From: Candidatus Woesearchaeota archaeon
GTDB lineage: Archaea; Nanobdellota; Nanobdellia; SCGC-AAA011-G17; GW2011-AR18
Length of the DNA stretch: 64,000 nt
Direction of reading: 5' to 3'
Assembly (NCBI GenBank): GCA_964497265.1
Contig: CAZCCK010000002.1
Coordinates: 20,614 to 84,613, forward strand
In this document: positions 4,747-60,157 of the stretch, one piece after another
Position numbering within the stretch: position 1 is the first letter of the stretch
How the letters are laid out: every line of letters begins with the position of its first letter
Notes under the pieces: generated by a model
Told to the model about the DNA's origin: nothing
Databases searched by the model: none
The model's input: only the letters and a program-made list of their open reading frames with translations
Made by a program: the position numbers and the translations under genes

Positions 4747-4767
4747 GGGGTTTCTTCTGGTTTGAGA

Positions 4768-6480
4768 ATGGTAGATCTAGAGAGAATTCGTCATTCAAGT
4801 GCGCATGTTTTAGCTGCAGCAGTAAAAAAGTTGTGGCCTGATACAAAACTAGGGATAGGTCCGGTTATTGAAGACGGTTTTTATTATGATATTGATACAA
4901 AGCATGTTTTCACGCCAGAAGATTTTCCTAAGATTGAAAAGGAAATGGAAGCTATCATAAAGAAAGATGAAAAGTTTGAAAGAAAAGTTCTTACGCAAAG
5001 TGAAGCTAAAAAGCTATTCAAGCTAGACCCATACAAAAGCGAATTAATTGAAGACATTCAAAGAAAAGGAGAGGAGATTAGTATTTATCAAACAGGAGAG
5101 TTTGTAGATCTTTGTCACGGACCGCATGTTTCATCTACGAAAGAGATTGGTGCTTTTAAGTTGTTAAAGATCGCGGGTGCGTATTGGAAAGGAGATGCGA
5201 AAAATTCTCAGATGCAAAGAATTTATGGGACTGCTTTCGCTTCCAAAAAAGAGCTAGAGGAATATTTGCATAGGTTAGAAGAAGCCAAGAAGAGAGATCA
5301 TAGAATTCTTGGAGAACAGTTAGATTTAGTTATGATTCATGAATATTCTCCAGGTTCTCCTTTTTTCTTACCTAAGGGAACAATCATCTATCTAGAGTTG
5401 ATGAAGTTCATAAGAGAAGAATATCAAAAGAGAGGCTTCAAAGAAGTAATTACTCCTTTATTATTTAATAAAAAATTATGGGAGACTTCTGGACATTGGG
5501 AACATTATAAGGATAATATGTTTAATATTGAAATTGAAAAGGAGACGTTTAGTTTCAAGCCGATGAATTGTCCTTCTCATTGTTTGATTTACAAAAGAAA
5601 GTTGTGGAGTTATAGAGAATTGCCTTTGAGAATAGCAGATTTTGCAGCGTTACATAGAAATGAACTTTCCGGAACATTGAGTGGATTAACAAGAGTAAGA
5701 AAGATGAGCCAGGATGATGCTCATATTTTTGTTACAAAGGATCAGTTAGAAGAAGAAATAAAAGAAATCTTAGATTTTGAAAAGTTTGTTTACGAAAAAA
5801 TTTTCAAGTTTGAGTATCATATGTATTTAGGAACAAGACCCGATAATTTTTTAGGTGAAAAAGAAGTTTGGGATAAAGCTGAGAAAATCTTAGAAGACGT
5901 TTTGAAAGAGAAAAAAATCACCTACACCCTTATGCCTAAAGACGGCGCGTTTTATGGTCCTAAAATAGATCTAAGAGTAAAAGACGCTTTAGGAAGAGAG
6001 TGGCAGCTTGCAACCGTGCAGCTTGATTTTCAGATGCCATTAAGGTTTGATTTAAGTTATGAGGGTGCAGATGGAAAAAAACATAACCCGATTATGATTC
6101 ACAGAGCAGTGTTGGGAACTTTAGAGCGGTTTATTGGAGTATTGATTGAGCATTTCGCAGGTAAGTTTCCAGTTTGGTTGTCTCCAGTACAGGTGTCTTT
6201 AATTACAGTTGCGGATAGACATATTCCTTTTGCGAATGAACTTAAAAAAGAATTCGAGTCACAAGGATTAAGAGTGGAAGTTGATGCTCGGACTGAGAGT
6301 ATAGGTAAAAAAGTAAGAGATAATCAAGCAGAGAAAATTCCATACGTAGTAACGATTGGAGATAAAGAGATGGAGTCTGGAAATTTAGCAGTTAGAGATA
6401 GGAATAATCAGGTAAATATATTAAAGAAAGAAGTTTTCCTAGAGCAAGTAAAGAAAGAGGTTGCGCAGAGGCAATGTTAG
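4768..6480 (+). CDS. thrS: Threonyl-tRNA synthetase (class II). It has the N2 editing/SAD domain but no N-terminal TGS (N1) domain
   Basis: HxxxH (HSSAHVLAAAV) and CxxxH (CHGPHVSS) zinc motifs of the ThrRS/AlaRS second additional domain. Class II core motifs (FRAx, GAFYGPKIDL, HRAVLGTLERFIGVLIEH). C-terminal anticodon-binding domain. The track start at 4762 is TTG; the first ATG is at 4768, about 25 nt downstream of a TATA-like box, so the transcript is probably leaderless. Confidence 0.9.
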   Translation: MVDLERIRHSSAHVLAAAVKKLWPDTKLGIGPVIEDGFYYDIDTKHVFTPEDFPKIEKEMEAIIKKDEKFERKVLTQSEAKKLFKLDPYKSELIEDIQRKGEEISIYQTGEFVDLCHGPHVSSTKEIGAFKLLKIAGAYWKGDAKNSQMQRIYGTAFASKKELEEYLHRLEEAKKRDHRILGEQLDLVMIHEYSPGSPFFLPKGTIIYLELMKFIREEYQKRGFKEVITPLLFNKKLWETSGHWEHYKDNMFNIEIEKETFSFKPMNCPSHCLIYKRKLWSYRELPLRIADFAALHRNELSGTLSGLTRVRKMSQDDAHIFVTKDQLEEEIKEILDFEKFVYEKIFKFEYHMYLGTRPDNFLGEKEVWDKAEKILEDVLKEKKITYTLMPKDGAFYGPKIDLRVKDALGREWQLATVQLDFQMPLRFDLSYEGADGKKHNPIMIHRAVLGTLERFIGVLIEHFAGKFPVWLSPVQVSLITVADRHIPFANELKKEFESQGLRVEVDARTESIGKKVRDNQAEKIPYVVTIGDKEMESGNLAVRDRNNQVNILKKEVFLEQVKKEVAQRQC

Positions 6481-14192: not shown

Positions 14193-15662
14193 ATGGATAA
14201 AAGCACAATTGGAAAGGGTGAAACTCTTCTCATAGTTCCTCCAAATAGAAGTTACGATCGCAGGTTGCCTTTAGGAGTAATGCAGATTTCTTCTTATCTA
14301 ACAAGTAAAAACTTCGAAAATGATATTCTTGATTTTAAAGGAATTGAGCAAGAAAAGGGAATGGAGAAGATAAAAGAAGCGATTCTGAAATCTAAGCCAA
14401 AGTTTGTAGGGATGTCTTGTTTTATTACAGAACTTCCAATTTTAAAAGAGTTATGTGAATTTATAAAGAAAGAAAACAAAGATACTGTTATTATCATTGG
14501 CGGACCTTATCCTACTGAGAGGCCAGATCATTTTGTGGAAAAAGAGATAAAGTTTGATTATTTAGTTTTAGGTGAGGCTGAAGAAAGTTTTTATGAGTTA
14601 ATTAAAGAGATTAAAGAAGGAAGAGATGGAAAAGAGTTGAAGGGAGTTGCTTATCTTAAAGAAGGAAAATTAATAAAAAATGCTAGTCGTCCTGACGTTC
14701 AGAATTTAGATGAGCTTCCTTTTCCAGCATATGAAAAAGTTGATATGAAGTATTACACTCAGCCTAATTCTTGGACGATTCGAGGAGTGTATCTTTCTTC
14801 CTTGTTGATGTTTACAGCCAGAGGATGTCCTTATGTGTGTAAGTTTTGTACGGTGAGAGATAGAAGGCCGAGGATGATGAGTCCTAAGAAGATTGTCGAT
14901 CATTTAGAATTATTAGTTAAGAATTATAAGATTGATGGTATTCAATTTGGGGATGATACCTTTACGTTATATCGGTGGAGAGTATATGAGATTTTCAAGT
15001 TGATTAAAGAGAGAGGAATTAAGTTAATTTATGGTATTCAAACAAGAGCAGATTTGTTAGATGAGGAGTTAGTAAAGTTCTTGAAAGAAAATGGAGTTAT
15101 TCAAGTAAACATGGGTATTGAATCTGGTTCTGATAAAATGCTTAAAGTGGTAGATAAACGTGTTACTGTTGCTAGAATTCGACAAACAGCTCAGGTTTGT
15201 AGAACGTTAGGAATGAGGATGTCCGCATTTATGATGATTAATATTCCTGGAGAAACCAAGGAAGATATAGAAGAATCGTTAAAGTTAGTGAAGGAAATGA
15301 AGTTTAACGTGACCCAGTGGAGCGTGTATAATCCTTATCCTGGAACAGATTTAGGAGGAGAATTAGATTTAGAAGATCTTAATGTAATTTCAAAGTTTCC
15401 ATCAAAAGAGTCGATGGAGCTTATTGAAAAGAAGTATAAGTATGCGACTTATCCTGATCGCTTGGCTGATATGTTAGCGTATATTCACTCACAAACGTTT
15501 AATGTAAGAAATGTGAAGATGATTCTTGGTGGGGATTATATTCCTTCATTTTTTAGGTTCGTTTCTTTTATGTTTGATGGAAATTATTTTAAGAAGCTTG
15601 GAACAAGTAAGAGAAAGTTAGATTATATTACCAGTATTAAAAGTCAGTTTTTAGGATTATAA
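14193..15662 (+). CDS. B12-binding (class B) radical SAM protein
   Basis: N-terminal cobalamin-binding-like domain, then the radical SAM cluster motif TARGCPYVCKFCTV (CxxxCxxC). Confidence 0.85.
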   Translation: MDKSTIGKGETLLIVPPNRSYDRRLPLGVMQISSYLTSKNFENDILDFKGIEQEKGMEKIKEAILKSKPKFVGMSCFITELPILKELCEFIKKENKDTVIIIGGPYPTERPDHFVEKEIKFDYLVLGEAEESFYELIKEIKEGRDGKELKGVAYLKEGKLIKNASRPDVQNLDELPFPAYEKVDMKYYTQPNSWTIRGVYLSSLLMFTARGCPYVCKFCTVRDRRPRMMSPKKIVDHLELLVKNYKIDGIQFGDDTFTLYRWRVYEIFKLIKERGIKLIYGIQTRADLLDEELVKFLKENGVIQVNMGIESGSDKMLKVVDKRVTVARIRQTAQVCRTLGMRMSAFMMINIPGETKEDIEESLKLVKEMKFNVTQWSVYNPYPGTDLGGELDLEDLNVISKFPSKESMELIEKKYKYATYPDRLADMLAYIHSQTFNVRNVKMILGGDYIPSFFRFVSFMFDGNYFKKLGTSKRKLDYITSIKSQFLGL

Positions 15663-16625: not shown

Positions 16626-17891
16626 TTAGTTGTTTCCAACTAAGATAGGTTCCATTTTTTGAAGGTCTGCAGCTTCAGTTGCTTGTTCGCTGCTAGTAGG
16701 TAGAGGAAAGTTTTTTTCACGTAATGAAGCGATTCCATCTTCCTTTTCGTAGGTGATAAGTTTTTCGCAAGTTTTACAGATAGGTAAGACCGGGTTGTTG
16801 AGGAAGCGTTTTCTAAAGTCAGTAAGTTCTTTTCCGTACCAGATTTCTTCGAAAGATTGTTGGAGGATATTTCCAAAGGGTTTTTTTATTGCGAAGCAAA
16901 AGATGACGTTTCCTTCGCAGTCTACTCGTGGAATAAAGAGTTGTTTGCAGAAGTGTTCTCCATCGACAGTACGGTTATAGTAGCTGGAAAGTTTTTCTTT
17001 GAAGTAAAAGGGCATGTATCCAATAACGACGCCTCTATCAGTTGCTGCTTTTTCAGTGTCATCTAAACTAAGTTTAAGTTTTTCCATGCTATATTCTGGA
17101 AGTTCTTGATCTCCTGAAACAAGAGGGAAATTCTCATAAGTATTTGGAATGTTGAGCGCTTTAGCTGTCTCTTCAATCATTTCTTTGGTGTACATTCTTT
17201 CGTATTCTAATTCGATGTAGTTTGCTTTGGATTCCTTAGCGACATCTATAATTTCTTTAAGATGGGGCATGTTTTCTTTAGTTATAACTGAAACTAAGCT
17301 AACAAAGATACCTCGTTCTCTCATAGCTTTGACGTTTTTCATAGACTGTTGGAAGGCAAATTGCCAGCCTCTAATTTGATTGTGAATTTTTTCAGGTCCG
17401 TCAATGGAGACTACGACGCTCGACATTTCTTTGTATTTTTCGAGTTTTTCGATCATAGGTGGAGAAAGAAGTGTTCCGTTGGTTGCGATTGCTGTTTTGA
17501 TTCCTTTTGTTTGTAAGAATTCAAGAATTTCAAAGATATCTCTTCGTAAGAAAAGTTCTCCGCCAATAAGGGTAATGTTTTTGAGCGTGGGAACTTTATT
17601 GACCATTATTTTAAAGTCTTCGAAAGACATTTCTTTGGATTTAGTGGTGACAGCGAAGTTGATATAGCACATTCTACATCTTAAGTTACATTTTCCTGTG
17701 GGTTCCCAGATTAAAGAGTCTGGTAAAGGAATGTCTCCTGTTTCTAGAAATGACCTATACATTCCACGGAGTTTAGAATAATAACGGTTAAGATAAAATT
17801 TTCTTGCTACACCCATTACTCCTAAGTCTGACGCGACGAGTTTAAGTTTGGTAGAAATTTTAGTCATAGCGGAAATTTTAGGCATGGGCAT
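16626..17891 (-). CDS. Radical SAM / SPASM-domain protein (anSME/PqqE-like architecture)
   Basis: CNLRCRMCY (CxxxCxxC). GGE(L/P) and SIDGPEKIHNQIRG motifs. C-terminal Cys cluster (CEGNVIFCFAIKKPFGN...PICKTCEKL). The track TTG start at 17954 would overlap the upstream gene by 50 nt; ATG at 17891 (MPMPKI...) is more plausible. Confidence 0.8.
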   Translation of the reverse strand: MPMPKISAMTKISTKLKLVASDLGVMGVARKFYLNRYYSKLRGMYRSFLETGDIPLPDSLIWEPTGKCNLRCRMCYINFAVTTKSKEMSFEDFKIMVNKVPTLKNITLIGGELFLRRDIFEILEFLQTKGIKTAIATNGTLLSPPMIEKLEKYKEMSSVVVSIDGPEKIHNQIRGWQFAFQQSMKNVKAMRERGIFVSLVSVITKENMPHLKEIIDVAKESKANYIELEYERMYTKEMIEETAKALNIPNTYENFPLVSGDQELPEYSMEKLKLSLDDTEKAATDRGVVIGYMPFYFKEKLSSYYNRTVDGEHFCKQLFIPRVDCEGNVIFCFAIKKPFGNILQQSFEEIWYGKELTDFRKRFLNNPVLPICKTCEKLITYEKEDGIASLREKNFPLPTSSEQATEAADLQKMEPILVGNN

Positions 17892-17904
17892 CACTTTTTG
17901 TTGA

Positions 17905-18909
17905 CTAAAGCAATCTGACTTCGTTTTTAAGTGTTTCGGATTCGTAGAGGGCAAGAATGGTTTTTAGGGTTTTTAAGCCATCTTCTCCTGTAACGCGAGG
18001 AGGCCTATTTTCTTGGATGGCTAAGGTAAAATCTTGAATTTGTTGTTTGATGTGCCCCTTTTTAAAGTGGCTTCTTGTTTTAAGAGAGTCGAGTAAGCTT
18101 AATTTTGTTTGCAAGAGAGTAAAGAAGTGTACGGTTTTATTTTTAGTGAGGATTGCTGATCCTTTTTCTCCGTGAATTTCTAATCTGTCATTAAGTTGGT
18201 TAGGCAGAGTTGTGCTTGCTTCAAAGGTAGCCAGAGCTCCGTTTTTAAATTTGAGAAGCCCGACTAAGGTATCTTCAACTTCCATTTTGTAAGCGTGTCC
18301 GGCTTTGGCGTAGACAGATTCTACGTCTCCTAATAAGTAGAGCAAAAGATCGAAATGGTGGATGGCTTGAACGATTAAAACACCTCCGCCAGCAGTGGCT
18401 AGATTTTTTCTCCATCCTCCAGAAGCGTCGTAGTACTCTTTTTTTCTTGACCATTTTACAGAAGCGTTACTTAAGAAAATTTTTCCAAAAAGTCCTTTAT
18501 CTAGAAGTTTTTTTAGTTCAAGTACTGCTTCGTCAAAGCGGTATTGAGAGATAACACTAAGTTTTACATTGTGTTGTTTGCAAGCGTGAATGAGTTGTTC
18601 TGCTTTCTTTACAGAGATGTCGATTGGTTTTTCTACCAGAACGTGCTTACCTGCTTTTGCTGCTTGAATTCCTAAGTCTGCATGGGTATTGTTTGCGGTG
18701 ACGATGTCTACGGCGTTTATTTCAGGGTTAGCTAATAATTCAGTGTAGTCCGTATAGACGTGAGGGATCTCGTAGCGTTTAGCAAATGCTTCTGCTCTTG
18801 CTCGATCATTACTTCTTATTGCTAAGAGTTTAGTATTTGGAAGGGATTTTAGTGCTTGTGCGTGTTTCTCCGCGATTGATCCTGTTCCGATAAGGGCGAA
18901 ATTTATCAT
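17905..18909 (-). CDS. Gfo/Idh/MocA family NAD(P)-dependent oxidoreductase (sugar or sugar-nucleotide dehydrogenase-like)
   Basis: N-terminal Rossmann motif MINFALIGTGSIAEKHAQAL. Family-typical EKP motif (VLVEKPI). ATGA overlap with the upstream gene. Confidence 0.85.
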   Translation of the reverse strand: MINFALIGTGSIAEKHAQALKSLPNTKLLAIRSNDRARAEAFAKRYEIPHVYTDYTELLANPEINAVDIVTANNTHADLGIQAAKAGKHVLVEKPIDISVKKAEQLIHACKQHNVKLSVISQYRFDEAVLELKKLLDKGLFGKIFLSNASVKWSRKKEYYDASGGWRKNLATAGGGVLIVQAIHHFDLLLYLLGDVESVYAKAGHAYKMEVEDTLVGLLKFKNGALATFEASTTLPNQLNDRLEIHGEKGSAILTKNKTVHFFTLLQTKLSLLDSLKTRSHFKKGHIKQQIQDFTLAIQENRPPRVTGEDGLKTLKTILALYESETLKNEVRLL

Positions 18910-19739: not shown

Positions 19740-20471
19740 TTATCCTACTTTACAGCAGAGGGTTCTAAGACTCTCATACAATTTGAAATCTCCAAAGGAA
19801 GGTTCTGCACTCTGAGAGTTAGACCAGCAATATTCCCTATTCCTAGGAGCGGTAAGACCATAACCATAGGACTCGCAGCTTAGCCCTTCAGCAATACCCG
19901 ATCCGATTGGATTACTAATCGTATTGTTTAGCTGTTCCCGAACGCAGGTACGATCAGTAGAAGCGTAATATACAAAGGTAGTATCTCGAAAAATAGTAGA
20001 GCAGGCATAAGGATGTCCGGAGCTATCGAAAATAGAAGCGCATACTTGAGAAGCCGTTTTATCATTAGGTACCCGACGTTCTTCACAGAGGGGTCTAGGG
20101 GAACCTAAGTCACATACACCATTGCGACAAATTTGACTATTACATTGTTTGTTTCCGTAAGGGCATGAGCTGCCTATAGCTAGGTTGGTGGTTACGCATT
20201 TTCCTGGGTAAGCAGGGTCGGCAGTGTAACAAAAGTTTGAGGCGCAGTCTGAGTCTTTGTAGCAAGATGCTCCTATAACTAAGAAGTTTCCTGTTACTGA
20301 TTTGATGCTATTTCCGGTTAGAGTATTTGATGCGCTTGCTAAACTTGCGCCAGTTAAGCTTCCTGTAAGAGCGGTTGTGAAGACAACGACTCCGATTAAT
20401 AATATTAGAACGCCAGCAGTTACCTCTGCGGTTTTGAAATTAGAATTTTGTTGTTTTTCTACTTTTGCCAT
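19740..20471 (-). CDS. Cys-rich secreted / surface protein, paralog A (pilin-like conserved N-terminal helix, 16 Cys, ends in CCKVG)
   Basis: N-terminus MAKVEKQQNSNFKTAEVTAGVLILLIGVVVFTTALTGSLTGASLASASN is identical to that of the 52047..52622 protein. Variable Cys-rich C-terminal domain. Own TATA/(TA)7 promoter and GAGGAG ribosome-binding site. Confidence 0.6.
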   Translation of the reverse strand: MAKVEKQQNSNFKTAEVTAGVLILLIGVVVFTTALTGSLTGASLASASNTLTGNSIKSVTGNFLVIGASCYKDSDCASNFCYTADPAYPGKCVTTNLAIGSSCPYGNKQCNSQICRNGVCDLGSPRPLCEERRVPNDKTASQVCASIFDSSGHPYACSTIFRDTTFVYYASTDRTCVREQLNNTISNPIGSGIAEGLSCESYGYGLTAPRNREYCWSNSQSAEPSFGDFKLYESLRTLCCKVG

Positions 20472-20492
20472 TAAGTATCACTCCTCTTTTAA
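20300..20492. repeat. Dispersed duplicated module, copy A: ribosome-binding site plus first ~57 codons of the Cys-rich protein gene
   Basis: Near-identical at the nucleotide level to 52462..52645 (about 7 substitutions in the ~110-nt core I aligned by eye, plus one small indel). Confidence 0.8.
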
Positions 20493-20520
20493 TTAATTTA
20501 AGAAATAATTTTGATTAAAG

Positions 20521-20537
20521 GTATATATATATATATC
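20521..20537 (-). promoter_or_regulatory. (TA)7 TATA-like tract in the promoter of Cys-rich gene A
   Basis: tatatatatatatat lies about 50 nt upstream of the ATG at 20471, followed by an AT-rich spacer and a GAGGAG ribosome-binding site. Confidence 0.4.
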
Positions 20538-20542
20538 GTTTT

Positions 20543-22003
20543 TTAGATGACGCCTTCCATTGGTTTTGGTGCGCCTACAATTTCAGGTAAAGGAATATCT
20601 CCTCGTTCTTTTCTTTTTTTGATAAAGACTTTAATTCCTAGTTTAATTAGCTGAGATCTCACTCTAACATAAGGAGCGTATTTAATCAAACTCTTATCTA
20701 CAACATCTGCGATTGCTCGAAAGGGTCGATTTGCTTTGTAAACTTCATAGCCAAAGGAATCGCGGATTTCTTTTAGTTCTTGAACAGTAAAGTTAGGGTG
20801 GATCATGTTTGAATCTTGAAAGTAAGAAGTGGAATATTCGTCAGCTAACCAACCATTTTTCTTACAAAGATCGTAAAGAGGTGTTCCAGGTAGAGCAGTG
20901 AAAATAGAACAACCTAGATAATCTGGATTTATTTTTCTATTTAGTTCAACAGTCATTTGAATATCATCTCGAGTTTCGTAAGGTAAACCAATCATGTTAA
21001 AAGCGTAAGTTTGGATTCCCGCTTCTCGTGCCCATTTAAAAGTTTGAATAATTTCTTCGTCAGTCATATCACGTTCAAGGAGTTCATTGCGTAATTTAGG
21101 GCTTCCACATTCAACACCCATATTGACACGCACACAGCCAGCGTGAGCTAGGTGCATAAAAATTTCTTTTGTGACGCAGTTAACGCGTGCGTTTACATAG
21201 AAAGGAACTTTGCCTACAGCCTCTGGATATTTTTTAGAGAATTCTTTGACGCGGGTAAAGTTTAAAGTAAAGGTATCGTCATTGAAGCCCACTTCTTTGA
21301 CGTGGTATTTATCTACAACCCCTTTGATTTCTGCGATAATCTTATCTACCGATTTGTAACGAACGAATGATCCTTGTCCTTTGTAGATTTCTTTTTGTCT
21401 ACGATTAATGCAATAAGTGCAAGGATAGGGACATCCTCGGGTTGAGACAAATGTTGCTGTTCCGTTATGCCAGTCTACGTAACGTTGGTAGTCAAAGATC
21501 GTTCGATCAGGAATGGGTAATTCGTCGAGGTTAGGTAAAGGTCTTTGGGGATTAGAGATAATTTTTCCATTTTCTTTAAACCAGATGTTAAGAATATTAG
21601 TTTTCTTCTCTCCTTTAGAGATCATATCAGCGACTTCTGCGATTGCTAGGTCTCCTTCTCCAACACAGACCATGTCTACGTTTTTTTGATCAAGTACTTC
21701 GTTAGGGGCCATCGTTGCATGGTAGCCGCCAACAACTACAGGAGCAGAAGGGTATTTTGTTTTGATCATATCGATAATGTGCATGCCGTATTTGAAATCG
21801 TTGGTAGCTACGGTAATGCAGAGCATTTCTGGGTTAAAGGCGGAAGCTTGTTTAACAATTTCTTCGTCAGTAATTCCCCAGGTTGTGTCAATTAAAGAAA
21901 CTTCATGTCCATTTTGTTTGAGCATTGCGCTGACGCAAGCTAAACCCATAGAGATGTCTTTAGGAGTTTCGATAATGTTTGGATAAATGAGTAGTACTCG
22001 CAT
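20543..22003 (-). CDS. B12-binding (class B) radical SAM protein
   Basis: N-terminal B12-binding-like domain (MRVLLIYPN...). Radical SAM motif STRGCPYPCTYCIN. Paralog of 14193..15662. Confidence 0.85.
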   Translation of the reverse strand: MRVLLIYPNIIETPKDISMGLACVSAMLKQNGHEVSLIDTTWGITDEEIVKQASAFNPEMLCITVATNDFKYGMHIIDMIKTKYPSAPVVVGGYHATMAPNEVLDQKNVDMVCVGEGDLAIAEVADMISKGEKKTNILNIWFKENGKIISNPQRPLPNLDELPIPDRTIFDYQRYVDWHNGTATFVSTRGCPYPCTYCINRRQKEIYKGQGSFVRYKSVDKIIAEIKGVVDKYHVKEVGFNDDTFTLNFTRVKEFSKKYPEAVGKVPFYVNARVNCVTKEIFMHLAHAGCVRVNMGVECGSPKLRNELLERDMTDEEIIQTFKWAREAGIQTYAFNMIGLPYETRDDIQMTVELNRKINPDYLGCSIFTALPGTPLYDLCKKNGWLADEYSTSYFQDSNMIHPNFTVQELKEIRDSFGYEVYKANRPFRAIADVVDKSLIKYAPYVRVRSQLIKLGIKVFIKKRKERGDIPLPEIVGAPKPMEGVI

Positions 22004-22117
22004 CAGATTTGTCTTCTTTTGAGCTATTTAAAGTTTTTTGTTAAAAGAAAAAGTATATGGGCCGCTAAGGAAATTTTTACACAAAATCTTTATAAACTAA
22101 TTGCCTTTAGGGTTCCT
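22004..22117. promoter_or_regulatory. Divergent promoter region between the B12-rSAM (minus) and SPASM-rSAM (plus) genes
   Basis: 114-bp AT-rich spacer with two TATA-like elements (tatttaaag; ctttataaact) facing opposite directions. Confidence 0.35.
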
Positions 22118-23293
22118 ATGCCTCCACTATCTACTATTCCGAAGTTTATTGGATATAAATTGGCGAATAAAGGGTTTTTAAAAAAGACTCCTAAACCGTA
22201 TCAGATTACGTTCTCGGTTACAACAGCATGTCAATCTTTGTGTAAGAGTTGTAATATTGGATTAGTGTATCAGAAAAATCCAGCGGTAGCGAAAAATGAT
22301 TTAACAATTGAAGAAATAGAAAAGATGTTTAAAAGTATTGGCCCGGTTTACTTTTTTAATATCAGCGGAGGAGAGCCTTATCTGAGGACAGATTTACCAA
22401 AGATTGTGGAATTAGCATGTAAGTACCTAAAACCCAGGGTGATTCATACTCCTACAAATGCGTTGATGCCTGCTCTGATTGAAAAGAAAACCAGAGAAAT
22501 AATGGAAATTATAAAAAGATATGATCCGTCTGTTCCTTATACAATTAAGCCTTCTTTTGATGGAGTCGGAGCAAAGCATGATGAATTAAGAGGAGTTAAA
22601 GGAAATTTTGAAAAATTAGTTGAAACCTATAAGCGATTAAAGGTTTTACAAAAAGATTTTCCTAATTTGCATGTAGGTTTAGGAACGGTAATTTCTAAAA
22701 ATAATTTAGATACGATCAAAGAGACAGTGGATTACGCCTTAAGTTTAGAACCAGATACGTATATCAATGAAGTTGCTGAAGAACGAAGTGAGATGTTTAA
22801 TACTTCTTCAATTACTCCGAGCGCGGAAGAGTATAAGAAAGCTACTGATTATTTTTCTCAGGAAGTTGCAAAAAAGATGAAGGGTAAGTCCGGGTTATCT
22901 AGGATTACGCAGGCTTTTAGATTAGTCTATTATGATTTAACCGTTAATATTTTAAAAACTAAGACACAGGTTATTCCTTGTTTTGCAGGTACTGTTTCTG
23001 CGCATATTAATGCGCAAGGGCAGGTCTGGGTGTGTTCTATTCTAGCATACGATAAGCCTATGGGCAATATTAGAGAGGCTAATTATGATTTTTATAAGAT
23101 TTGGCATTCAGAGCAGGCTCAAAAAGCAAGGGAATCTGTAAGAAGGAAAGAGTGCGCCTGTCCTATGGCGAATGCTTCTTATTATAATATGATGATGGAT
23201 CCTCCTTCAATGTTAAAGGCGATAAAATATTTCTTATTTCCAGAGAGTTATAAAAGAAATACTCAAACTGAAGATAAAAGTAAGTCGCAATAG
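22118..23293 (+). CDS. Radical SAM / SPASM-domain protein
   Basis: TACQSLCKSC (CxxxCxxC). ISGGEPYLR and SFDGVGAKHDELRG motifs. C-terminal Cys cluster (CFAGT...VWVCS...ECACP). The track start 22019 is TTG and only 15 nt from the divergent gene; the first ATG is 22118. Confidence 0.8.
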   Translation: MPPLSTIPKFIGYKLANKGFLKKTPKPYQITFSVTTACQSLCKSCNIGLVYQKNPAVAKNDLTIEEIEKMFKSIGPVYFFNISGGEPYLRTDLPKIVELACKYLKPRVIHTPTNALMPALIEKKTREIMEIIKRYDPSVPYTIKPSFDGVGAKHDELRGVKGNFEKLVETYKRLKVLQKDFPNLHVGLGTVISKNNLDTIKETVDYALSLEPDTYINEVAEERSEMFNTSSITPSAEEYKKATDYFSQEVAKKMKGKSGLSRITQAFRLVYYDLTVNILKTKTQVIPCFAGTVSAHINAQGQVWVCSILAYDKPMGNIREANYDFYKIWHSEQAQKARESVRRKECACPMANASYYNMMMDPPSMLKAIKYFLFPESYKRNTQTEDKSKSQ

Positions 23294-42340: not shown

Positions 42341-43420
42341 ATGCATAACTATAAAAAGGTTGAGCCTTTTCTGCATTTTAAGAGAAGCATGGACGCGCTA
42401 GCTTATCCTAAATTTGCGAAAAAAATCGGGTTGACTCGTTTGGCAAGAGATTGGAATACAACAATTCCGTTGCCGTGGAAATTATTAGTTGAGATTACAA
42501 AAGTTTGTAATAATAAGTGCGTGAATTGTTCGATTTGGTCTTCTCCAAATAAGCAGTTTTTATCTTTAGCAGATTATGAAAAACTATTCAAAGAGAATGA
42601 GAATTTATTTTGGCTTTCTTTAACAGGTGGTGAACCTTTTACAAGACCAGATATTGATAAAATTGCAAAGTTAGCAGTAGATAATTGTCCCGATGTAAAA
42701 TTATTGTCTATTCCTACAAACGGTTTTTGGGTTGAAAAAATTGTTGAAAAAACAAAAGCCTTGATGAATACAGGGTTAGAGTGCCACATCACAATTTCGT
42801 TGGATGGTCCTGAAGGGATTCATAATCAAATTAGAGGAATGAAAGATGGGTGGCAACGAGCAGTTAGGACATTTCACGCGTTAAAAGATTTAGGGGTAGA
42901 TGTTCGTTATCAGTCCACATTACACGCTCAGAATATGGATGTTTTCAAAGAGTTTTACACCCGGTATGCGAAAGATATTGGCGTGTTAACGTTTACTCAA
43001 ACTTCAGAAGTGTATTATGAAAATAGTGATATAAAAGCGTTGCAAGGTGAGGAAGCGGCTAAGATGTTTGATTGGCTTTCTGAAAATTTTCAGATTAGGG
43101 AAAAGCACGATCATTTTGAGAAGATGCATCTTAAGATTGCTTCAAAGTATTTAAGAAAAAAGGATATGATGATTCCGTGTACTGCCGGTTTTTCTGGCGC
43201 GTATATTGCTACTGATGGAAATGTGTATCCTTGTTTTTCAATGCCTTCTTGGGGGAATATAAAAGAGAAGTCTTTCAAAGATATTTGGTATAGTGAGATG
43301 GCTGCTAAAGAAAGAGGCAAGATTAAAGCAAAGCAATGTCCAAAGTGTTGGATTAATTGTTTCTCGTTCCAAGACATGGTGACGTATCCTGAGAAAGCGA
43401 TTGCTAAAGCGTATTTGTAG
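42341..43420 (+). CDS. Radical SAM / SPASM-domain protein, third paralog
   Basis: KVCNNKCVNCSIW (CxxxCxxC). LTGGEPFTR and SLDGPEGIHNQIRG motifs. C-terminal Cys cluster (CTAG...YPCFS...CPKCWINC). Clearly homologous to 16626..17891 and 22118..23293. Confidence 0.8.
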   Translation: MHNYKKVEPFLHFKRSMDALAYPKFAKKIGLTRLARDWNTTIPLPWKLLVEITKVCNNKCVNCSIWSSPNKQFLSLADYEKLFKENENLFWLSLTGGEPFTRPDIDKIAKLAVDNCPDVKLLSIPTNGFWVEKIVEKTKALMNTGLECHITISLDGPEGIHNQIRGMKDGWQRAVRTFHALKDLGVDVRYQSTLHAQNMDVFKEFYTRYAKDIGVLTFTQTSEVYYENSDIKALQGEEAAKMFDWLSENFQIREKHDHFEKMHLKIASKYLRKKDMMIPCTAGFSGAYIATDGNVYPCFSMPSWGNIKEKSFKDIWYSEMAAKERGKIKAKQCPKCWINCFSFQDMVTYPEKAIAKAYL

Positions 43421-52046: not shown

Positions 52047-52622
52047 TTATGCAGCTTTACAACAGGTTACTCTAACGGGATCAACGTAGGATTTAGAGTA
52101 AATTCTAGTAGGGGTAAGGATGTTATAAACCTGTGCGCACGGCGGGTTTGCTCTAAAATCTGCAATTGTAGTCTGACAACCTTGATCAGAATTTGTACTA
52201 GTAGTCCCGGTTTGCTGGTATACCTTATCTGTGTAGGTTATAACTCCCGAACAAGTTGAAGAGCCATAATAATTTGTAACATTGAATATTCCTACTGTCG
52301 AACATTTAGAATTAGCCATATTTTGACTGCAAACTTGATCTCCTGTCAAAGTGAGGGGCCAATTGGGAAAATTAAAAACCCTACAGGTAGGCGTAGCAGG
52401 TTGGCAGTATCCTCCGCTGCAAACTTCTGTTCTTGCACAGTCTAAATTAGATTTACACGATGCTCCAATTGCATTTCCAGTTAAAGCATTTGATGCGCTT
52501 GCTAAACTTGCGCCGGTTAAGCTTCCTGTAAGAGCGGTTGTGAAGACAACGACTCCGATTAATAAGATTAAAACACCAGCAGTGACTTCTGCGGTTTTAA
52601 AGTTAGATTCTTTTTTTGCCAT
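52047..52622 (-). CDS. Cys-rich secreted / surface protein, paralog B (same N-terminal module as 19740..20471; 12 Cys; ends in CCKAA)
   Basis: MAKKESNFKTAEVTAGVLILLIGVVVFTTALTGSLTGASLASASN is identical to paralog A. C-terminus is divergent but keeps GASCxxxxDCA and TCCK motifs. Confidence 0.6.
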   Translation of the reverse strand: MAKKESNFKTAEVTAGVLILLIGVVVFTTALTGSLTGASLASASNALTGNAIGASCKSNLDCARTEVCSGGYCQPATPTCRVFNFPNWPLTLTGDQVCSQNMANSKCSTVGIFNVTNYYGSSTCSGVITYTDKVYQQTGTTSTNSDQGCQTTIADFRANPPCAQVYNILTPTRIYSKSYVDPVRVTCCKAA

Positions 52623-52645
52623 TAAGTATCAGCTCCTTTTTTTAT
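52462..52645. repeat. Dispersed duplicated module, copy B
   Basis: See copy A. The encoded 45-aa N-terminus is 100% identical. Confidence 0.8.
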
Positions 52646-52776
52646 ATAAGTATAAACTGATTTTGAAAAAACTAGTATATAAAGCTTTTTTTTAGAATAA
52701 CGTCCAGAATATAGAGATTCAACAAATTATTTTAGAGAAAGAGAAGTTTTTTAAAGAAGAGAGTAATAAAAAAAGT

Positions 52777-53156: not shown

Positions 53157-53429
53157 ATGATTGTTAAGTTTTTAGGAATTCTCGATTTAGTGCTTGCAGT
53201 AGGTTTACTTTTAGCGTCAGTGTTGCCGGCAGAGGTATTGATGGTTTTTGGATTATACTTGCTAGTCAAAGGAGGATTTTTTCTTCTGACTGGAGATTGG
53301 ATGAGCGTATTAGATATTGGAGTGGCGATTTATTTTATGGTAGCTGCTTTTGGAGTGACAAGTGCTGTAATTACTGCGGTAGCTACTCTTTTTTTAATTC
53401 AGAAAGGCGGATTTAGTTTGTTAAATTAG
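53157..53429 (+). CDS. Small membrane protein (3 TM)
   Basis: Hydrophobic 90-aa ORF. Confidence 0.35.
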   Translation: MIVKFLGILDLVLAVGLLLASVLPAEVLMVFGLYLLVKGGFFLLTGDWMSVLDIGVAIYFMVAAFGVTSAVITAVATLFLIQKGGFSLLN

Positions 53430-54307
53430 TTTTTCTTAAGTCGTTTTTGTTTTTCTGGAGTATCTAAATAGTTTTCTGAAGTAGAAATTTTTTGTCCGCT
53501 TCGTTTCTCAAGTTCTTTTCGAGCGATTCCAGCGACTTCCCCTCCTTCCTTAGCTGCCTTTTTATTTTCAGTAAAACCTTGAGCATCTTTATTTTTAGCG
53601 ATAGAGGTGGTTGAAGCTTCTCCGAGCATAGTAAATACTAATTCTAAATCGTTCATATGATCCCGTAAGTTGGGTTTATCTAATTTTTTAAAATCTTTGT
53701 ATTCTTCTACAGTTTTTCCAAAAGTTGCTTTACTAATTTCATTCGTTAAGATTGCATACTCCTTTTGTTCGTCTACGCCTCTGTTTTTCCATTCATCAGT
53801 AAGTTGATTTCTTATTACAATCCCCCTTACTCTTTTTTCTATCCATTCTTCAGAGTAGCCTTTTAGTCGATAAAGTTCTTTCATACGGGTTTGGGCTAAT
53901 TCTGGGTTTTCTATTTCTTGTAAGCGTTCATAGCCAACTTTAGCTAGCCAAAGTTTGAAAGGTTCTGCTTTTGAGGAAGGTATTGATTGAATAAGTCTAA
54001 ATGCGCCTTCCGTATTTACACAATTAAGATTCTGTGGACCTCCTTGAGTATCAATGCGAAGGGGGGTGGCAATTTGCCCCCACCCTTGAGCAAACCCTTC
54101 ATCTCTTCTCCTCATATCTTTCAAATAACCTTGAGGATCTTTAGAATCGGTTAAAACAGAAACGATATCTAGCGCAACAAACCACCATTCATTATTATGC
54201 CAGGTTTTTCTAACATTTTTTCCTTCGAAAACAGCTAGAGAGAGCACCATAAAGGAGTAAAGTTTTAAAGGTTTATAAATAAATCGCGAGGTTGGCGCGG
54301 ATGGCAT
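53426..54307 (-). CDS. Bro-N-like (phage antirepressor N-terminal) domain protein
   Basis: The N-terminal segment FEGKNVRKTWHNNEWWFVALDIVSVLTDSKDPQGY fits the Bro-N pattern (F..VR....gE.WFva.Dv...L). The rest is a K/E-rich coiled-coil-like region. Confidence 0.5.
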   Translation of the reverse strand: MPSAPTSRFIYKPLKLYSFMVLSLAVFEGKNVRKTWHNNEWWFVALDIVSVLTDSKDPQGYLKDMRRRDEGFAQGWGQIATPLRIDTQGGPQNLNCVNTEGAFRLIQSIPSSKAEPFKLWLAKVGYERLQEIENPELAQTRMKELYRLKGYSEEWIEKRVRGIVIRNQLTDEWKNRGVDEQKEYAILTNEISKATFGKTVEEYKDFKKLDKPNLRDHMNDLELVFTMLGEASTTSIAKNKDAQGFTENKKAAKEGGEVAGIARKELEKRSGQKISTSENYLDTPEKQKRLKKN

Positions 54308-54316
54308 GAGTTAGGG

Positions 54317-54640
54317 CTAAGTATCGTCTTTGGAAGCGTCAGTTGTGATTTGCTCTCCTTTCTTAATGTCTCTCAAAGCAAGAGCACACTGACTTCTCAG
54401 GTCTTGAATGGTATTGGGTTGATCTGAATGGTTTACGTATCGTTCAGGAGGAGGGTAAAGATAAAGCACTCCCCAGTGAGTATGAACAAAGTATCGTTCT
54501 GTTTTAGAAAGTTTAGTAAACTCTTGTTCAGAAATGGGTTTAAGGTGATATTTTAGAACAACCTCTCCTTTCTTAAAAGGCTTATTAGCAAAAAGTCCTT
54601 TTCCAAAGATATTACCTTTTTTAAGAGTTACAGGTTTCAT
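54317..54640 (-). CDS. Mini SET-domain protein (putative protein-lysine methyltransferase)
   Basis: GKGLFANKPFKKGEVVLKY (N-SET GxG..F...I..Ge.i.eY). NHSDQPNT (NHSC-like motif). 107 aa, like other archaeal mini-SET proteins. Confidence 0.65.
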   Translation of the reverse strand: MKPVTLKKGNIFGKGLFANKPFKKGEVVLKYHLKPISEQEFTKLSKTERYFVHTHWGVLYLYPPPERYVNHSDQPNTIQDLRSQCALALRDIKKGEQITTDASKDDT

Positions 54641-55464: not shown

Positions 55465-56442
55465 ATGGAGAAAAAAGAGTTAGAGAAATATGTTGTGATT
55501 ATTTTTCTTTTAATTCTTATTTATTTGTGTTACTCGATTTTAAAGCCGTTTCTAAATGCGTTGTTAGCAAGTGCGATTTTAGCTTACCTCTTCCATCCTT
55601 TATTTTTAAAAATAAATGAGAAAGTAAAAAATAGGTATATCTCTTCAGGGTTGACAACGGCTTTAGTAGTTATTTTAATTGTTCTTCCTTTAGTAGGGGT
55701 AATCAATGTGTTAATTCGAGAAGCGTCAAATGCGTATCATTCGGGTGCGGTAAATGCGGTAAGTTCTTTTATTACGTCTGCTTTGGGCGATGTTGAAGTT
55801 GGTTCAATTACTTCCAGTTTTCTTTCAAGAGCGATAAATTATCTTGTGAATTGGGCGAGTGATTTTGTAGTAAATATTCCTACAACGATTCTTAGAGCGA
55901 TTATTTTAGTGTACGCGTTATTTCATTTTTTAATGAGTGGAGAATCCATTGTAGAGGTAATCAAAGAGCATTTACCTTTAAAGAATAAAGAAAAGGTTAT
56001 GAAACAATTAGGTGAAACCACGAAAGGAGTGGTTTACGGTGTTTTTGTGATTGCTTTAGTTGATGCGATTCTTACAAGTATTGTTTTTAGAATGTTAGGA
56101 TTGAATAATTCTTTGTTATGGGGTTTACTTGTGGGTATTCTTGCGATTCTTCCGTTATTAGGGACTGGATTAGTGTGGATTCCTTTCGCGATTCTAGAAG
56201 GAATAAAAGGAAATTATACTGCAGTTATTATTCTTTTGAGTTTAGGTGTTGCTTTAACACTAATAGACTATTTAGGTAGGCCTTGGATTATTGGGAAGAA
56301 AACAACGATACATCCTTTGGTTGTTTATCTTGGTGTTGCGGGAGGATTGTATGTGTTTGGAATAACTGGCTTAATTGTGGGTCCGTTATGTTTATCTTTT
56401 TTAGCGATTTGTATTGAAGAGTATTATGTGAAGGCTAATTAA
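55465..56442 (+). CDS. AI-2E family (UPF0118/PerM-like) transporter
   Basis: 7-8 TM helices with the family-typical N-terminal segment and long first loop. Confidence 0.55.
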   Translation: MEKKELEKYVVIIFLLILIYLCYSILKPFLNALLASAILAYLFHPLFLKINEKVKNRYISSGLTTALVVILIVLPLVGVINVLIREASNAYHSGAVNAVSSFITSALGDVEVGSITSSFLSRAINYLVNWASDFVVNIPTTILRAIILVYALFHFLMSGESIVEVIKEHLPLKNKEKVMKQLGETTKGVVYGVFVIALVDAILTSIVFRMLGLNNSLLWGLLVGILAILPLLGTGLVWIPFAILEGIKGNYTAVIILLSLGVALTLIDYLGRPWIIGKKTTIHPLVVYLGVAGGLYVFGITGLIVGPLCLSFLAICIEEYYVKAN

Positions 56443-57283: not shown

Positions 57284-57428
57284 AGTTTTATTTGGAAATT
57301 TTTGTTAATAAATCTAACTAATTCAAATTATTCTGATTGCTTTTAGAATTGATTAAATAAAGAATATTAATAAGGATTTCTAAGTAAAAAGAGGAAAGGT
57401 TATATAATCCAGAAAAGAAAAATTAAGT

Positions 57429-58859: not shown

Positions 58860-58863
58860 TTTT

Positions 58864-60137: not shown

Positions 60138-60157
60138 TGAGTAGTTTTCTTGTTTCT

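What the first reader, a model, noticed from the sequence alone, without database searches (positions are those of the whole stretch)
19740..20542. Cys-rich secreted protein pair sharing a nucleotide-identical 5' module (RBS plus 45-aa N-terminal helix) with divergent Cys-rich C-termini
Seen in sequence:
- The gene at 19740..20471 and the gene at 52047..52622, about 32 kb apart on the same strand, share about 94% nucleotide identity over their ribosome-binding site and first ~57 codons.
- The encoded segment NFKTAEVTAGVLILLIGVVVFTTALTGSLTGASLASASN is 100% identical.
- The remaining 130-185 aa are only weakly similar, but both have an even number of Cys (16 and 12), a shared GASCxxxxDCA spacing and the same TCCK(V/A)x C-terminus.
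- Paralog A sits immediately downstream of a B12-rSAM gene.

Inference: a conserved N-terminal hydrophobic helix with a variable disulfide-rich C-domain is the architecture of type IV pilin-like or class III signal peptide proteins. It would also fit a family of surface or toxin-like modules swapped behind a common export/anchor cassette. Nucleotide-level conservation, with no synonymous drift, suggests recent duplication, gene conversion or a constrained 5' RNA element. Extracellular disulfide-rich proteins are unusual in archaea.
Basis: seen in the sequence. Interest (0 to 1): 0.8.

Follow-up and report, generated by a model that had tools for sequence, protein, structure and literature searches.

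The report
Paralogous Cys-rich archaeal surface proteins
Two genes of a tiny DPANN-type archaeon encode exported, cysteine-rich proteins with an almost identical membrane-helix front end and very different bodies; they belong to a small undescribed gene family, and this front end was recently copied from one gene to the other.

Summary
Genes A (19740-20471) and B (52047-52622), both on the minus strand, share about 180 nt, from the ribosome-binding site to codon 54 (A) or 50 (B). Identity is 124/135 over the ungapped part, and nothing similar occurs elsewhere in the window.

"No synonymous drift" is wrong. The module has 10 synonymous and 1 non-synonymous difference (dS 0.32, dN 0.009). The rest of the genes is synonymously saturated.

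A profile search of 1.84 billion proteins found about a dozen relatives, labelled Nanoarchaeia where a source names them. All carry the module (K-rich leader, GxLILLIGxVVFTTALxGSxTG) in front of different bodies, which hold 1-11 four-Cys colipase/Dickkopf-like knots. P0003, apparently a third paralogue on the same contig, resembles A in the body, yet A's module matches B's. That indicates recombination or gene conversion.

None of four homologue neighbourhoods holds a radical SAM gene. There is no RNA structure and no Rfam hit.

Best reading: the module is a retained N-terminal membrane helix that works like a type IV pilin H-domain and displays variable disulfide-rich heads. A and B themselves lack the canonical class III cleavage motif, although half of their relatives have it. 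Function is untested. The family is new; the kind of system is known.

The parts
19740..20471 (-). Gene A, 243 aa, 16 Cys. Order: leader, module, spacer, two 4-Cys knots, about 118-aa tail ending LCCKVG.
   Evidence: ORF list, translation, family alignment.
52047..52622 (-). Gene B, 191 aa, 12 Cys. Same module; the Cys-knot part is shorter than A's (about 45 residues of A unmatched); homologous tail ending TCCKAA. Identical to database protein P0002.
20310..20490 (-). Shared 5' block in A (SD-like GGAGTGAT, ATG, codons 1-54). Inferred recombination / gene-conversion tract.
52473..52643 (-). Shared 5' block in B (SD-like GGAGCTGAT, ATG, codons 1-50).
20367..20423 (-). A residues 17-35, VTAGVLILLIGVVVFTTAL. 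This is the strongly hydrophobic core of the conserved helix. The uncharged stretch runs 17-48 and the AF2 helix 15-46.
52530..52586 (-). B residues 13-31, the same hydrophobic core (AF2 helix 10-41).
20112..20276 (-). A residues 66-120: two 4-Cys repeats of form SC-x5-C-x3-4-C-x4-10-C. This is the only confidently modelled part (pLDDT about 90). Similarity to Dickkopf_N / colipase is sub-threshold.
52383..52469 (-). B residues 52-80: the IGASC...DCA...C..G.C...C Cys-knot region.
19743..20096 (-). A residues 126-243: tail domain with motifs YYASTDRTC ... AEPxxGD ... LCCKVG. The first and last motifs recur in B, P0004 and P0005 (AEPxxGD in P0004/P0005 only). The fold is not predictable (pLDDT below 50).
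20522..20536 (-). TA-run (TATA-like box) 51-65 nt upstream of A's ATG, inside the 71-nt gap after the rSAM gene. This suggests A has its own promoter. The string TATATATATACCTTTAATCAAAA is shared with the promoter region of homologue P0004 (L086).
   Evidence: Promoter function is an inference.
52676..52683 (-). TTTATATA (TATA-like box) 54-61 nt upstream of B's ATG.
   Evidence: Inference.

Best explanation
A and B are paralogues of a small, undescribed protein family. A third paralogue, P0003, apparently lies on the same 84.6-kb contig outside the window. The relatives that a source names are labelled Candidatus Nanoarchaeia (the DPANN group of very small archaea).

Architecture:
- a short Lys-rich leader;
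- a conserved, roughly 32-residue uncharged helix, G(V/I)LILLIG(L/V)VVFTTAL(A/T)GS(I/L)TG(A/F)S(I/L);
- a Gly/Ser/Thr spacer, mostly with an (L/I/V)TG(N/Q)x(I/V) motif;
- one to eleven 4-Cys knots;
- a variable tail, ending CC(K/R/N)x0-2 in six members.

Proposed mechanism:
1. The leader and helix send the protein to the Sec translocon.
2. The helix stays in the mature protein as an N-in/C-out membrane segment.
3. The disulfide-bonded body is therefore displayed outside the cell.
4. The helix is conserved whatever body follows it. I therefore think it is an assembly or partner-binding domain that works like the H-domain of archaeal type IV pilins, rather than a passive anchor.

The DNA-level near-identity of A and B is not a separate functional element. 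It comes from strong purifying selection on the peptide plus a fairly recent recombination or gene-conversion event that overwrote about 180 nt (SD to codon 54/50) of one copy with the other.

Shown: the family, the architecture, the selection pattern, the mosaicism, and the lack of conserved rSAM linkage.
Inferred: export, retention of the helix, pilin-like assembly.

My sub-probabilities:
- family, export and recombination: about 0.85;
- helix retained in the mature protein: about 0.65;
- pilin-like assembly: about 0.35-0.4.
For: Family:
- The profile search of 1.84e9 representatives gave 15 hits, 14 of them true, and every true hit begins with the module.
- Four family-like genes lie in one array in L083, two of them with a different, 2-Cys tail.

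Selection:
- A versus B module: 10 synonymous and 1 non-synonymous difference, dS 0.32, dN 0.009.
- A versus B tail: pS 0.76, dN 0.90. Fisher P = 2.5e-7.
- Reliably aligned Cys codons in the tail differ in 7 of 11 cases.
- Second lineage (P0004, P0005, P0015): module dS 0.42-1.13 with dN 0.05-0.12. The peptide is constrained, not the DNA.

Recombination:
- Module identity: A-B 41/42, A-P0003 33/42.
- Spacer plus Cys-knot region: A-P0003 35/66 with the same architecture, against A-B 11/26.
- P0004 versus P0005 is a mosaic: dS 0.24 in codons 42-112, against 1.13 and 1.46 on either side.

Helix:
- AF2 predicts helix 15-46 in A and 10-41 in B.
- The uncharged run is 25-35 residues in 14 of 16 members, after a leader with net charge of +1 to +3 in 15 of 16.
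- The MG2-domain protein in the same window has an ordinary 20-aa signal peptide (MRSINVLFFSFLLLLPLVSA|N). The module is therefore not this genome's generic signal peptide.

Pilin-likeness:
- 8 of 16 members have [KRD][GAS] exactly at the leader/helix junction.
- Three of these have +1 Gln (KA|QI, RG|QA), like the Methanococcus Epd pilin sites KGQV and RAQI (PMC4371748).
- In the family alignment, A and B keep Lys at -3 and Ala at -1.
- The six H. volcanii PilA pilins likewise share an almost fully conserved H-domain; none of their genes is co-regulated with the pilus-biosynthesis genes.

Expression signals: an extended SD-like site and a TATA-like box lie in front of both genes.
Against: - A and B lack a charged residue at -2 with G/A/S at -1 (they have K-T-A|E-V). 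By the published rule they are not canonical class III substrates.
- No Pilin_N, Class III or archaellin Pfam match, even at E<=10, for A or B. No pilin or archaellin among PDB sequence hits.
- The 64-kb window holds no prepilin peptidase and no PilB/PilC genes (not every ORF was scanned).
- AF2 places a low-confidence spacer after the helix rather than a packed pilin head. The tails are unmodelled (pLDDT below 50).
- Small-residue sites exist (ALA|GS in most members; ASA|S in A and B), so signal peptidase I cleavage is possible.
- dS in the tail depends on a difficult alignment.
Confidence: 0.5

Rival explanations
1. Passive signal-anchor. The helix is an uncleaved type II membrane anchor that tethers Cys-rich ectodomains under the S-layer. 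There is no filament or complex assembly. Conservation reflects common descent and gene conversion only.
For: - The 19-residue hydrophobic core with a positive-inside leader is enough for a transmembrane span.
- A and B have no canonical prepilin site.
- No pilin family matches.
- AF2 places a flexible spacer between helix and knots.
Against: - Passive anchors rarely keep near-identical sequences across species and in front of unrelated ectodomains.
- In the second lineage synonymous sites are diverged (dS up to 1.1), yet the peptide is kept (dN/dS about 0.1). This means selection on the exact sequence.
- Half of the relatives have a class III-type junction.
Confidence: 0.25
2. Cleavable Sec signal peptide with a conserved pro-region. 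The module is removed by signal peptidase I, and the Cys-rich proteins are released as soluble effectors or toxins. This would be the conotoxin-like pattern: a conserved signal with a hypervariable disulfide-rich mature part.
For: - Small residues at -3 and -1: TT-ALA|GS in 7 of 16 members, ALT|G and ASA|S in A and B.
- Knottin-like Cys modules; the best, non-significant structural hit is a spider toxin. Weak hits to LEAP-2 and colipase.
Against: - The uncharged stretch is 25-35 residues in 14 of 16 members and is predicted as one helix, far longer than the 7-15-residue h-region of Sec signals. An ordinary short signal peptide is present in the same window.
- Conservation continues past the putative site (GS(I/L)TG(A/F)S(I/L)).
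Confidence: 0.15
3. Radical-SAM-modified peptide (RiPP-like). A is the substrate of the adjacent B12-rSAM or SPASM enzymes, and the conserved N-terminus is a leader peptide.
For: - A lies 71 nt downstream of a B12-rSAM gene.
- Two SPASM rSAM genes lie within about 3 kb.
- The C-terminal part is Cys-rich.
Against: - No radical SAM gene lies near P0004, P0005, P0014 or P0015, nor near B.
- A has its own TATA-like box and SD.
- The rSAM genes sit in a 42-kb glycosylation island.
- At 191-243 aa, and with a membrane helix, the proteins are unlike RiPP precursors.
- No rSAM gene in the window reaches any RiPP-maturase NCBIfam cut-off.
Confidence: 0.03
4. A nucleotide-level element (structured 5' RNA, antisense transcript or regulatory site) keeps the two 5' regions alike.
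For: - Identity starts in the 5' UTR at the SD.
- There is a 50-nt perfect core.
- Antisense ORFs overlap the module.
Against: - The fold energy is no better than shuffled sequence (z = -0.19).
- No Rfam family reaches its gathering score in the window.
- Differences fall almost only on synonymous sites.
- The 50-nt run is not significantly long (P = 0.075).
- In the other lineage the same module has dS 0.4-1.1.
Confidence: 0.04

Closest known systems
Haloferax volcanii adhesion pilins PilA1-PilA6 (archaeal type IV pilins, arCOG02416)
   Same: - Several paralogues; none of their genes is co-regulated with the pilus-biosynthesis genes.
- All share an almost completely conserved N-terminal hydrophobic (H) domain in front of different C-terminal parts.
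- The H-domain is itself functional (PMC4371748).
- A short charged leader precedes the helix.
   Different: - The PilA proteins have canonical (R/D)(A/S) processing sites and, as far as I recall, belong to the Pilin_N family. A and B have K-T-A|E-V and no Pfam pilin match.
- No Cys-knot heads are described for PilA (my understanding).
- Nothing is known here about a peptidase or an assembly ATPase.
Methanococcus maripaludis Epd pilins (EppA substrates)
   Same: Their processing sites KGQ(V/L/I) and RAQI, with +1 Gln, are mirrored in relatives P0008 (KKA|QIASG), P0013 and L083_9614 (KRG|QAI(S/T)G) at exactly the leader/helix junction.
   Different: - A and B carry Glu where these carry Gln, and Thr where these carry Lys or Arg.
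- There is no sequence homology beyond that motif.
Dickkopf N-terminal / colipase-fold cysteine-rich modules (Pfam PF04706; also EB, DUF7107)
   Same: - Cys spacing in the knots.
- P0012 (33 bits) and P0009 (25.4 bits) pass the 25-bit Pfam cut-off. NCBI names P0009 'dickkopf-related protein'.
- Colipase is a weak PDB sequence hit.
   Different: - A (19 bits) is below the cut-off, and B does not match Dickkopf_N at all.
- Foldseek finds no significant match.
- The resemblance may reflect only convergent small disulfide knots.
Gene families with a conserved signal or N-terminal region and a hypervariable Cys-rich mature part (conotoxin superfamilies), and pilin variation by gene conversion (Neisseria pilE/pilS). 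Both are from general knowledge.
   Same: - A sharp boundary between a conserved 5' module and a diverged body.
- Recombination between paralogues produces mosaics.
   Different: - No silent cassettes.
- No evidence of programmed switching.
- The conserved part here is probably retained in the mature protein.

Membership tests
Archaeal class III signal peptide / type IV pilin-like proteins | [quoted passage not shown] | tested here: not met
   - A and B have ...F-K-T-A-E-V-T-A-G... with no [KRDE][GAS] at the junction. Aligned to their relatives they keep Ala at -1 and Lys at -3, but have Thr at -2.
- The feature is met in 8 of 16 relatives: KG|I, KA|Q, RG|Q, DS|G.
Archaeal class III signal peptide / type IV pilin-like proteins | A short charged leader followed at once by a hydrophobic H-domain of at least about 20 residues at the extreme N-terminus. 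| tested here: met
   - Leaders are 5-17 aa with net charge +1 to +3 in 15 of 16 members.
- The uncharged stretch is 25-35 aa in 14 of 16 members.
- AF2 predicts helix 15-46 in A and 10-41 in B.
Archaeal class III signal peptide / type IV pilin-like proteins | Sequence membership in the Pfam pilin or archaellin families (Pilin_N, Class III signal peptide, Arch_flagellin). | tested here: not met
   - No such hit for A or B, or for five other N-terminal modules, at E<=10.
- The only trace is one Arch_flagellin hit at E = 0.38 for L083_7654.
- No pilin among PDB sequence hits.
Archaeal class III signal peptide / type IV pilin-like proteins | A prepilin peptidase (PibD/FlaK/EppA) and a PilB/PilC-type assembly system in the same genome. 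| not testable with these tools
   - Only 64 kb of the genome is available, and none was seen among the window ORFs scanned.
- The genome is not in the searchable collections.
Sec (signal peptidase I) signal peptide | Tripartite n-h-c structure with a short h-region (about 7-15 aa) and small residues at -3 and -1. | tested here: inconclusive
   - Small-residue sites exist (ALT|G and ASA|S in A and B; ALA|G in most relatives).
- The hydrophobic or uncharged stretch is 19-32 aa, longer than in the ordinary signal peptide of the MG2 protein in the same window.
- No SignalP-type predictor was available.
RiPP precursor / radical SAM substrate | Conserved genomic association of the precursor with its maturase. 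| tested here: not met
   Four independent homologue contexts, and B's own context, contain no radical SAM gene.
Dickkopf_N / colipase-like Cys-rich domain (PF04706) | A score at or above the Pfam gathering threshold (25 bits). | tested here: not met
   - A scores 19.0 bits. B has no hit.
- Relatives P0009 (25.4) and P0012 (33.3) pass.
Diversity-generating retroelement target | A template/variable repeat pair at the 3' end of the target gene, plus a reverse transcriptase nearby. | tested here: not met
   The only long repeat in the window is the 5' module. No repeat involves the 3' part of either gene.

The most novel reading that the evidence does not exclude
The family could be a new class of archaeal type IV pilin-like subunits specific to Nanoarchaeia/Woesearchaeales. 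That would supply pilins that could not be identified in nanoarchaeal genomes for a T4P ATPase clade also found in nanoarchaea (Makarova et al. 2016, PMC4858521). The subunits would have a relaxed processing site (K-T-A|E) and knottin-like disulfide heads.

The conserved 5' module would also act as a recombination handle. It would swap heads between loci. Because A and B are direct repeats, it could also excise the 32-kb glycosylation island between them. The hybrid contig L001 has exactly that junction. Together this would be a surface-variation system in an episymbiotic archaeon.
Probability: 0.15. Interest if true: 0.75.

Novelty: new member of a known kind. Interest (0 to 1): 0.4.

Why it matters
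All cultivated DPANN archaea live attached to host cells, and their attachment proteins are largely unknown. This is a lineage-restricted, multi-copy family with expression signals suggesting high expression. Its N-terminal helix is strictly conserved and its exported Cys-rich heads diverge and recombine quickly. That makes it a reasonable candidate for host-contact or pilus-like structures.

It also gives a clean small example of recombination homogenising one domain of paralogues while the rest diverges to saturation. The family has no Pfam or NCBIfam model for its defining module, and one member is currently mislabelled 'dickkopf-related'.

Tried and rejected
- Word-index homologue search with A found only a hybrid and B itself. 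With the family alignment it found 5 proteins. With the module-only alignment it found nothing.
- Genome-collection scan with the module peptide found no relative. The JGI metagenome scan found none with the single peptide and only two loci from one sample with the alignment. The viral-contig scan found none.
- Exact look-ups of A, B, P0003, P0007 and a window-edge protein were not on record. I therefore could not extend the contig or get P0003's DNA.
- RNA element: fold z = -0.19; no Rfam hit in the window. Rejected.
- A nested, younger conversion tract: the 50-nt perfect run is not significant (P = 0.075). Not claimed.
- Structure: both AF2 models are confident only for the helix and the Cys knots; the tails have pLDDT below 50. 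Foldseek against PDB gave nothing significant. The afdb50 library was unavailable.
- The (L/I/V)TG(N/Q)x(I/V) motif as a general sorting signal: in about 110 kb of DPANN DNA it occurs after an N-terminal helix almost only in family members, plus one other L083 protein (a script that aborted partway). Left open.
- Sigma-70 promoter and terminator scans are uninformative for an archaeon.
- A literature search found no description of this family.
- DGR and RiPP readings were rejected (see membership tests).
Full report
**1. Observation**

Both ORFs are on the minus strand: A at 19740-20471 (243 aa) and B at 52047-52622 (191 aa).

- A nucleotide alignment shows one sharply bounded shared block. 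It starts at the SD-like AAGGAG(C)TGATACTTA just before the ATG. It ends at codon 54 of A and codon 50 of B (...LTGN).
- The block has a 1-nt indel in the SD and a 12-nt indel after codon 4.
- In the ungapped 135 nt, 124 positions are identical, with a 50-nt perfect core. The repeat finder reports 143 nt at 90%.
- A 47-nt core pattern occurs exactly twice, against 0 expected. blastp against every window ORF finds no third copy.
- Upstream of the SD there is only AT-rich, roughly 55-60% similarity. Both genes have a TATA-like box 51-65 nt before the ATG.

**2. Selection pattern**

- Nei-Gojobori counts for the module: 10 synonymous and 1 non-synonymous difference (pS 0.26, dS 0.32, dN 0.009).
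- For the 137 alignable tail codons: pS 0.76 (saturated) and dN 0.90. Fisher P = 2.5e-7.
- The reliably aligned Cys codons in the tail differ in 7 of 11 cases.
- 'No synonymous drift' is therefore wrong. The module is nonetheless far younger at the DNA level than the rest of the two genes, and since then it has been under very strong purifying selection on the peptide.

**3. Organism and surroundings**

- The window has 36% GC and no tRNA genes.
- It encodes an archaeal-type Dph6, an AglB/STT3 oligosaccharyltransferase, and DUF7407, DUF7408 and DUF7502 proteins.
- Its ThrRS is bacterial-type. The best matches (about 53%) include Woesearchaeota and Nanoarchaeota MAGs. This points to a DPANN archaeon with no close relative among the GTDB representatives.
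- Positions 7087-49592 form a roughly 42-kb envelope-glycosylation island. It holds glycosyltransferases, flippases, methyltransferases, a deacetylase and five radical SAM genes.
- A lies inside this island, 71 nt after a B12-rSAM gene, but it has its own TATA-like box and SD.
- B lies just beyond the island, upstream of a SpoIIM-like membrane protein gene.

**4. The family**

- Word-index searches were nearly empty.
- A full HMMER profile search of 1.84 billion representatives gave 15 hits. One of them, P0010, is a repeat-protein false positive.
- Every true hit starts with the same module: a K-rich leader, G(V/I)LILLIG(L/V)VVFTTAL(A/T)GS(I/L)TG(A/F)S(I/L), and then mostly (L/I/V)TG(N/Q)x(I/V).
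- Behind the module come one to eleven 4-Cys repeats and various tails. Several tails end in CC(K/R/N)x0-2.
- Other tails are unrelated. P0003 has a 200-aa tail with no cysteines. Two L083 genes have a 2-Cys tail, AYACLD...YRS..PC.
- Source labels, where present, say Candidatus Nanoarchaeia. NCBI calls P0009 'dickkopf-related protein'.
- Pfam gives only sub-threshold Dickkopf_N (A) and DUF7107 (B) hits. P0009 and P0012 pass the Dickkopf_N cut-off. NCBIfam gives nothing.

**5. Neighbourhoods**

- P0015 follows the ribosomal-protein / SecY / prefoldin cluster.
- P0014 sits in an array of four family-like genes after MCM.
- P0005 follows eRF1.
- P0004 lies next to RNase T and RIO1.
- No radical SAM gene occurs in any of these contexts. 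The rSAM adjacency in the window is therefore incidental.

**6. Replication of the pattern and evidence for recombination**

- P0004, P0005 and P0015 come from the same samples and share the module MKIQDVKTSKGITGG(V/I)LILLIGLVVFTTALAGSITGFSIF.
- Their module DNA is about 85-90% identical (estimated from the alignment), with dS 0.42-1.13 and dN 0.05-0.12. The peptide is what is constrained, not the DNA.
- P0004 versus P0005 is a mosaic. dS is 0.24 in codons 42-112, against 1.13 before that segment and 1.46 after it.
- In the window's own genome, P0003 comes from an NCBI contig of 84,636 nt. That is the same length and source as B's contig, so it is presumably the same contig outside the window.
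- In the spacer and Cys-knot region, P0003 is A's closest relative (35/66 identical, with the same two-knot architecture). A-B there is 11/26.
- In the module the picture reverses: A-B is 41/42 and A-P0003 is 33/42.
- This incongruence, together with the dS contrast, is best explained by recombination or gene conversion that homogenised the 5' ends of A and B.

**7. What the module is**

- AF2 predicts a single helix, residues 15-46 in A and 10-41 in B. The Cys knots are confident in A (pLDDT about 90) and moderately so in B. The tails are unmodelled.
- Foldseek against PDB finds nothing significant. PDB sequence searches give only weak LEAP-2 and colipase hits for the knots and nothing for the module.
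- The uncharged stretch is 25-35 residues in 14 of 16 members. It follows a 5-17-residue leader that is positively charged in all but one member.
- This is much longer than the ordinary signal peptide of the MG2-domain protein in the same window.
- By these criteria, 8 of 16 members qualify. Three of them have +1 Gln, as in the Methanococcus Epd pilins.
- A, B, P0003 and P0011 do not qualify. They have K-T-(A/T)-(E/D) at the aligned position.
- No pilin Pfam family matches.
- I therefore do not file A and B as class III proteins. The anatomy still works like a pilin H-domain:
  - the helix is conserved irrespective of the body that follows it;
  - each genome carries several scattered or arrayed paralogues;
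  - the genes carry expression signals suggesting high expression.
- The closest described parallel is the set of six H. volcanii PilA pilins, which share an almost fully conserved H-domain.

**8. Rejected readings**

- RNA element: z = -0.19 and no Rfam hit.
- RiPP precursor (section 5).
- DGR target: no 3' repeat.
- Virus-borne gene: no relatives in viral contigs.

**9. Verdict**

This is a real feature. It is an undescribed, lineage-restricted multigene family of exported Cys-rich proteins with a conserved N-terminal helix, and A and B are linked by a recombination tract.

The function (pilin-like subunit, tethered surface protein or secreted effector) remains inferred. The kind of system is known; the family is new. 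Interest is moderate.

Noticed in passing
L001 (Logan SRR8931234 contig, 1211 nt), compared with window 52812-52473 and about 20365-19439: The contig joins B's upstream region and B-type module to A's body and the downstream methyltransferase. Each unique part is 100% identical to the window. This is the junction expected if the two direct-repeat modules recombined and deleted about 32 kb (B's body, the SpoIIM-like gene, most of the glycosylation island and the B12-rSAM gene). It could equally be an assembly chimera through the 50-nt identical core (I recall Logan assemblies using k=31).
   Followed up: partly
Outside the window (protein P0003, 340 aa; NCBI contig of 84,636 nt): An apparent third paralogue lies on the same contig. 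Its module is 79% identical to A's. Its spacer and two Cys knots are closest to A. It then has an unrelated tail of about 200 aa with no cysteines. Its DNA could not be retrieved.
   Followed up: partly
window 7087-49592: A roughly 42-kb envelope glycosylation island. It holds AglB/STT3, four PMT_2-type transferases, many GT1/GT2/GT4 genes, two Wzx-like flippases, a polysaccharide deacetylase, several methyltransferases and five radical SAM genes. The B12-type rSAM genes are at 14193-15662 and 20543-22003; the SPASM-type at 16626-17954, 22019-23293 and 42341-43420. None of the four scanned against NCBIfam (42341-43420 was not) reaches an equivalog cut-off, so their substrates are unknown.
   Followed up: partly
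L083 6912-10033 (GCA_023245385.1): A segmental duplication of a unit made of an OB-fold gene plus family genes. It gives four family-like genes in one array (the OB-fold paralogue interposed). Two of them carry a different 2-Cys tail (AYACLD...YRS..PC), and one starts MKRGQAITG, a canonical class III-like start.
   Followed up: partly
window 20491-20536 and L086 about 470-530: The string TATATATATACCTTTAATCAAAA upstream of A recurs upstream of homologue P0004 in another genome. There the TA-run ends about 25 nt from the ATG, which suggests a leaderless mRNA. A and B have an extra stretch of about 30 nt that carries an SD. The family's promoter therefore seems conserved across species.
   Followed up: no
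window 53426-54307 (-) and L085 1-642: A Bro-N domain gene, a type usually associated with viruses or mobile elements, lies about 0.8 kb from B. Another lies on the contig that carries homologue P0005.
   Followed up: no
window 4762-6480 (+): The threonyl-tRNA synthetase is bacterial-type. It is equally similar (about 50-54%) to Bacillota enzymes and to Woesearchaeota/Nanoarchaeota MAG enzymes, which suggests an old inter-domain transfer shared by these DPANN lineages.
   Followed up: no
window 56435-63870 (-): A MoxR-type AAA ATPase, DUF58, VWA (Bat-like) gene cluster together with DUF7407, DUF7408 and DUF7502 proteins. A SET-domain protein lies at 54317-54640.
   Followed up: no
window 20302-20496 (+) and 52351-52695 (+): Antisense ORFs of 64 and 114 aa run across the shared module in both loci. 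They are most simply by-products of the conserved sequence on the other strand.
   Followed up: no
L083 2387-3055 (+): A protein outside the family has a different N-terminal helix but the same NQLTGNAV motif about 20 residues after it. The (L/I/V)TG(N/Q)x(I/V) motif may therefore have a role beyond this family.
   Followed up: no
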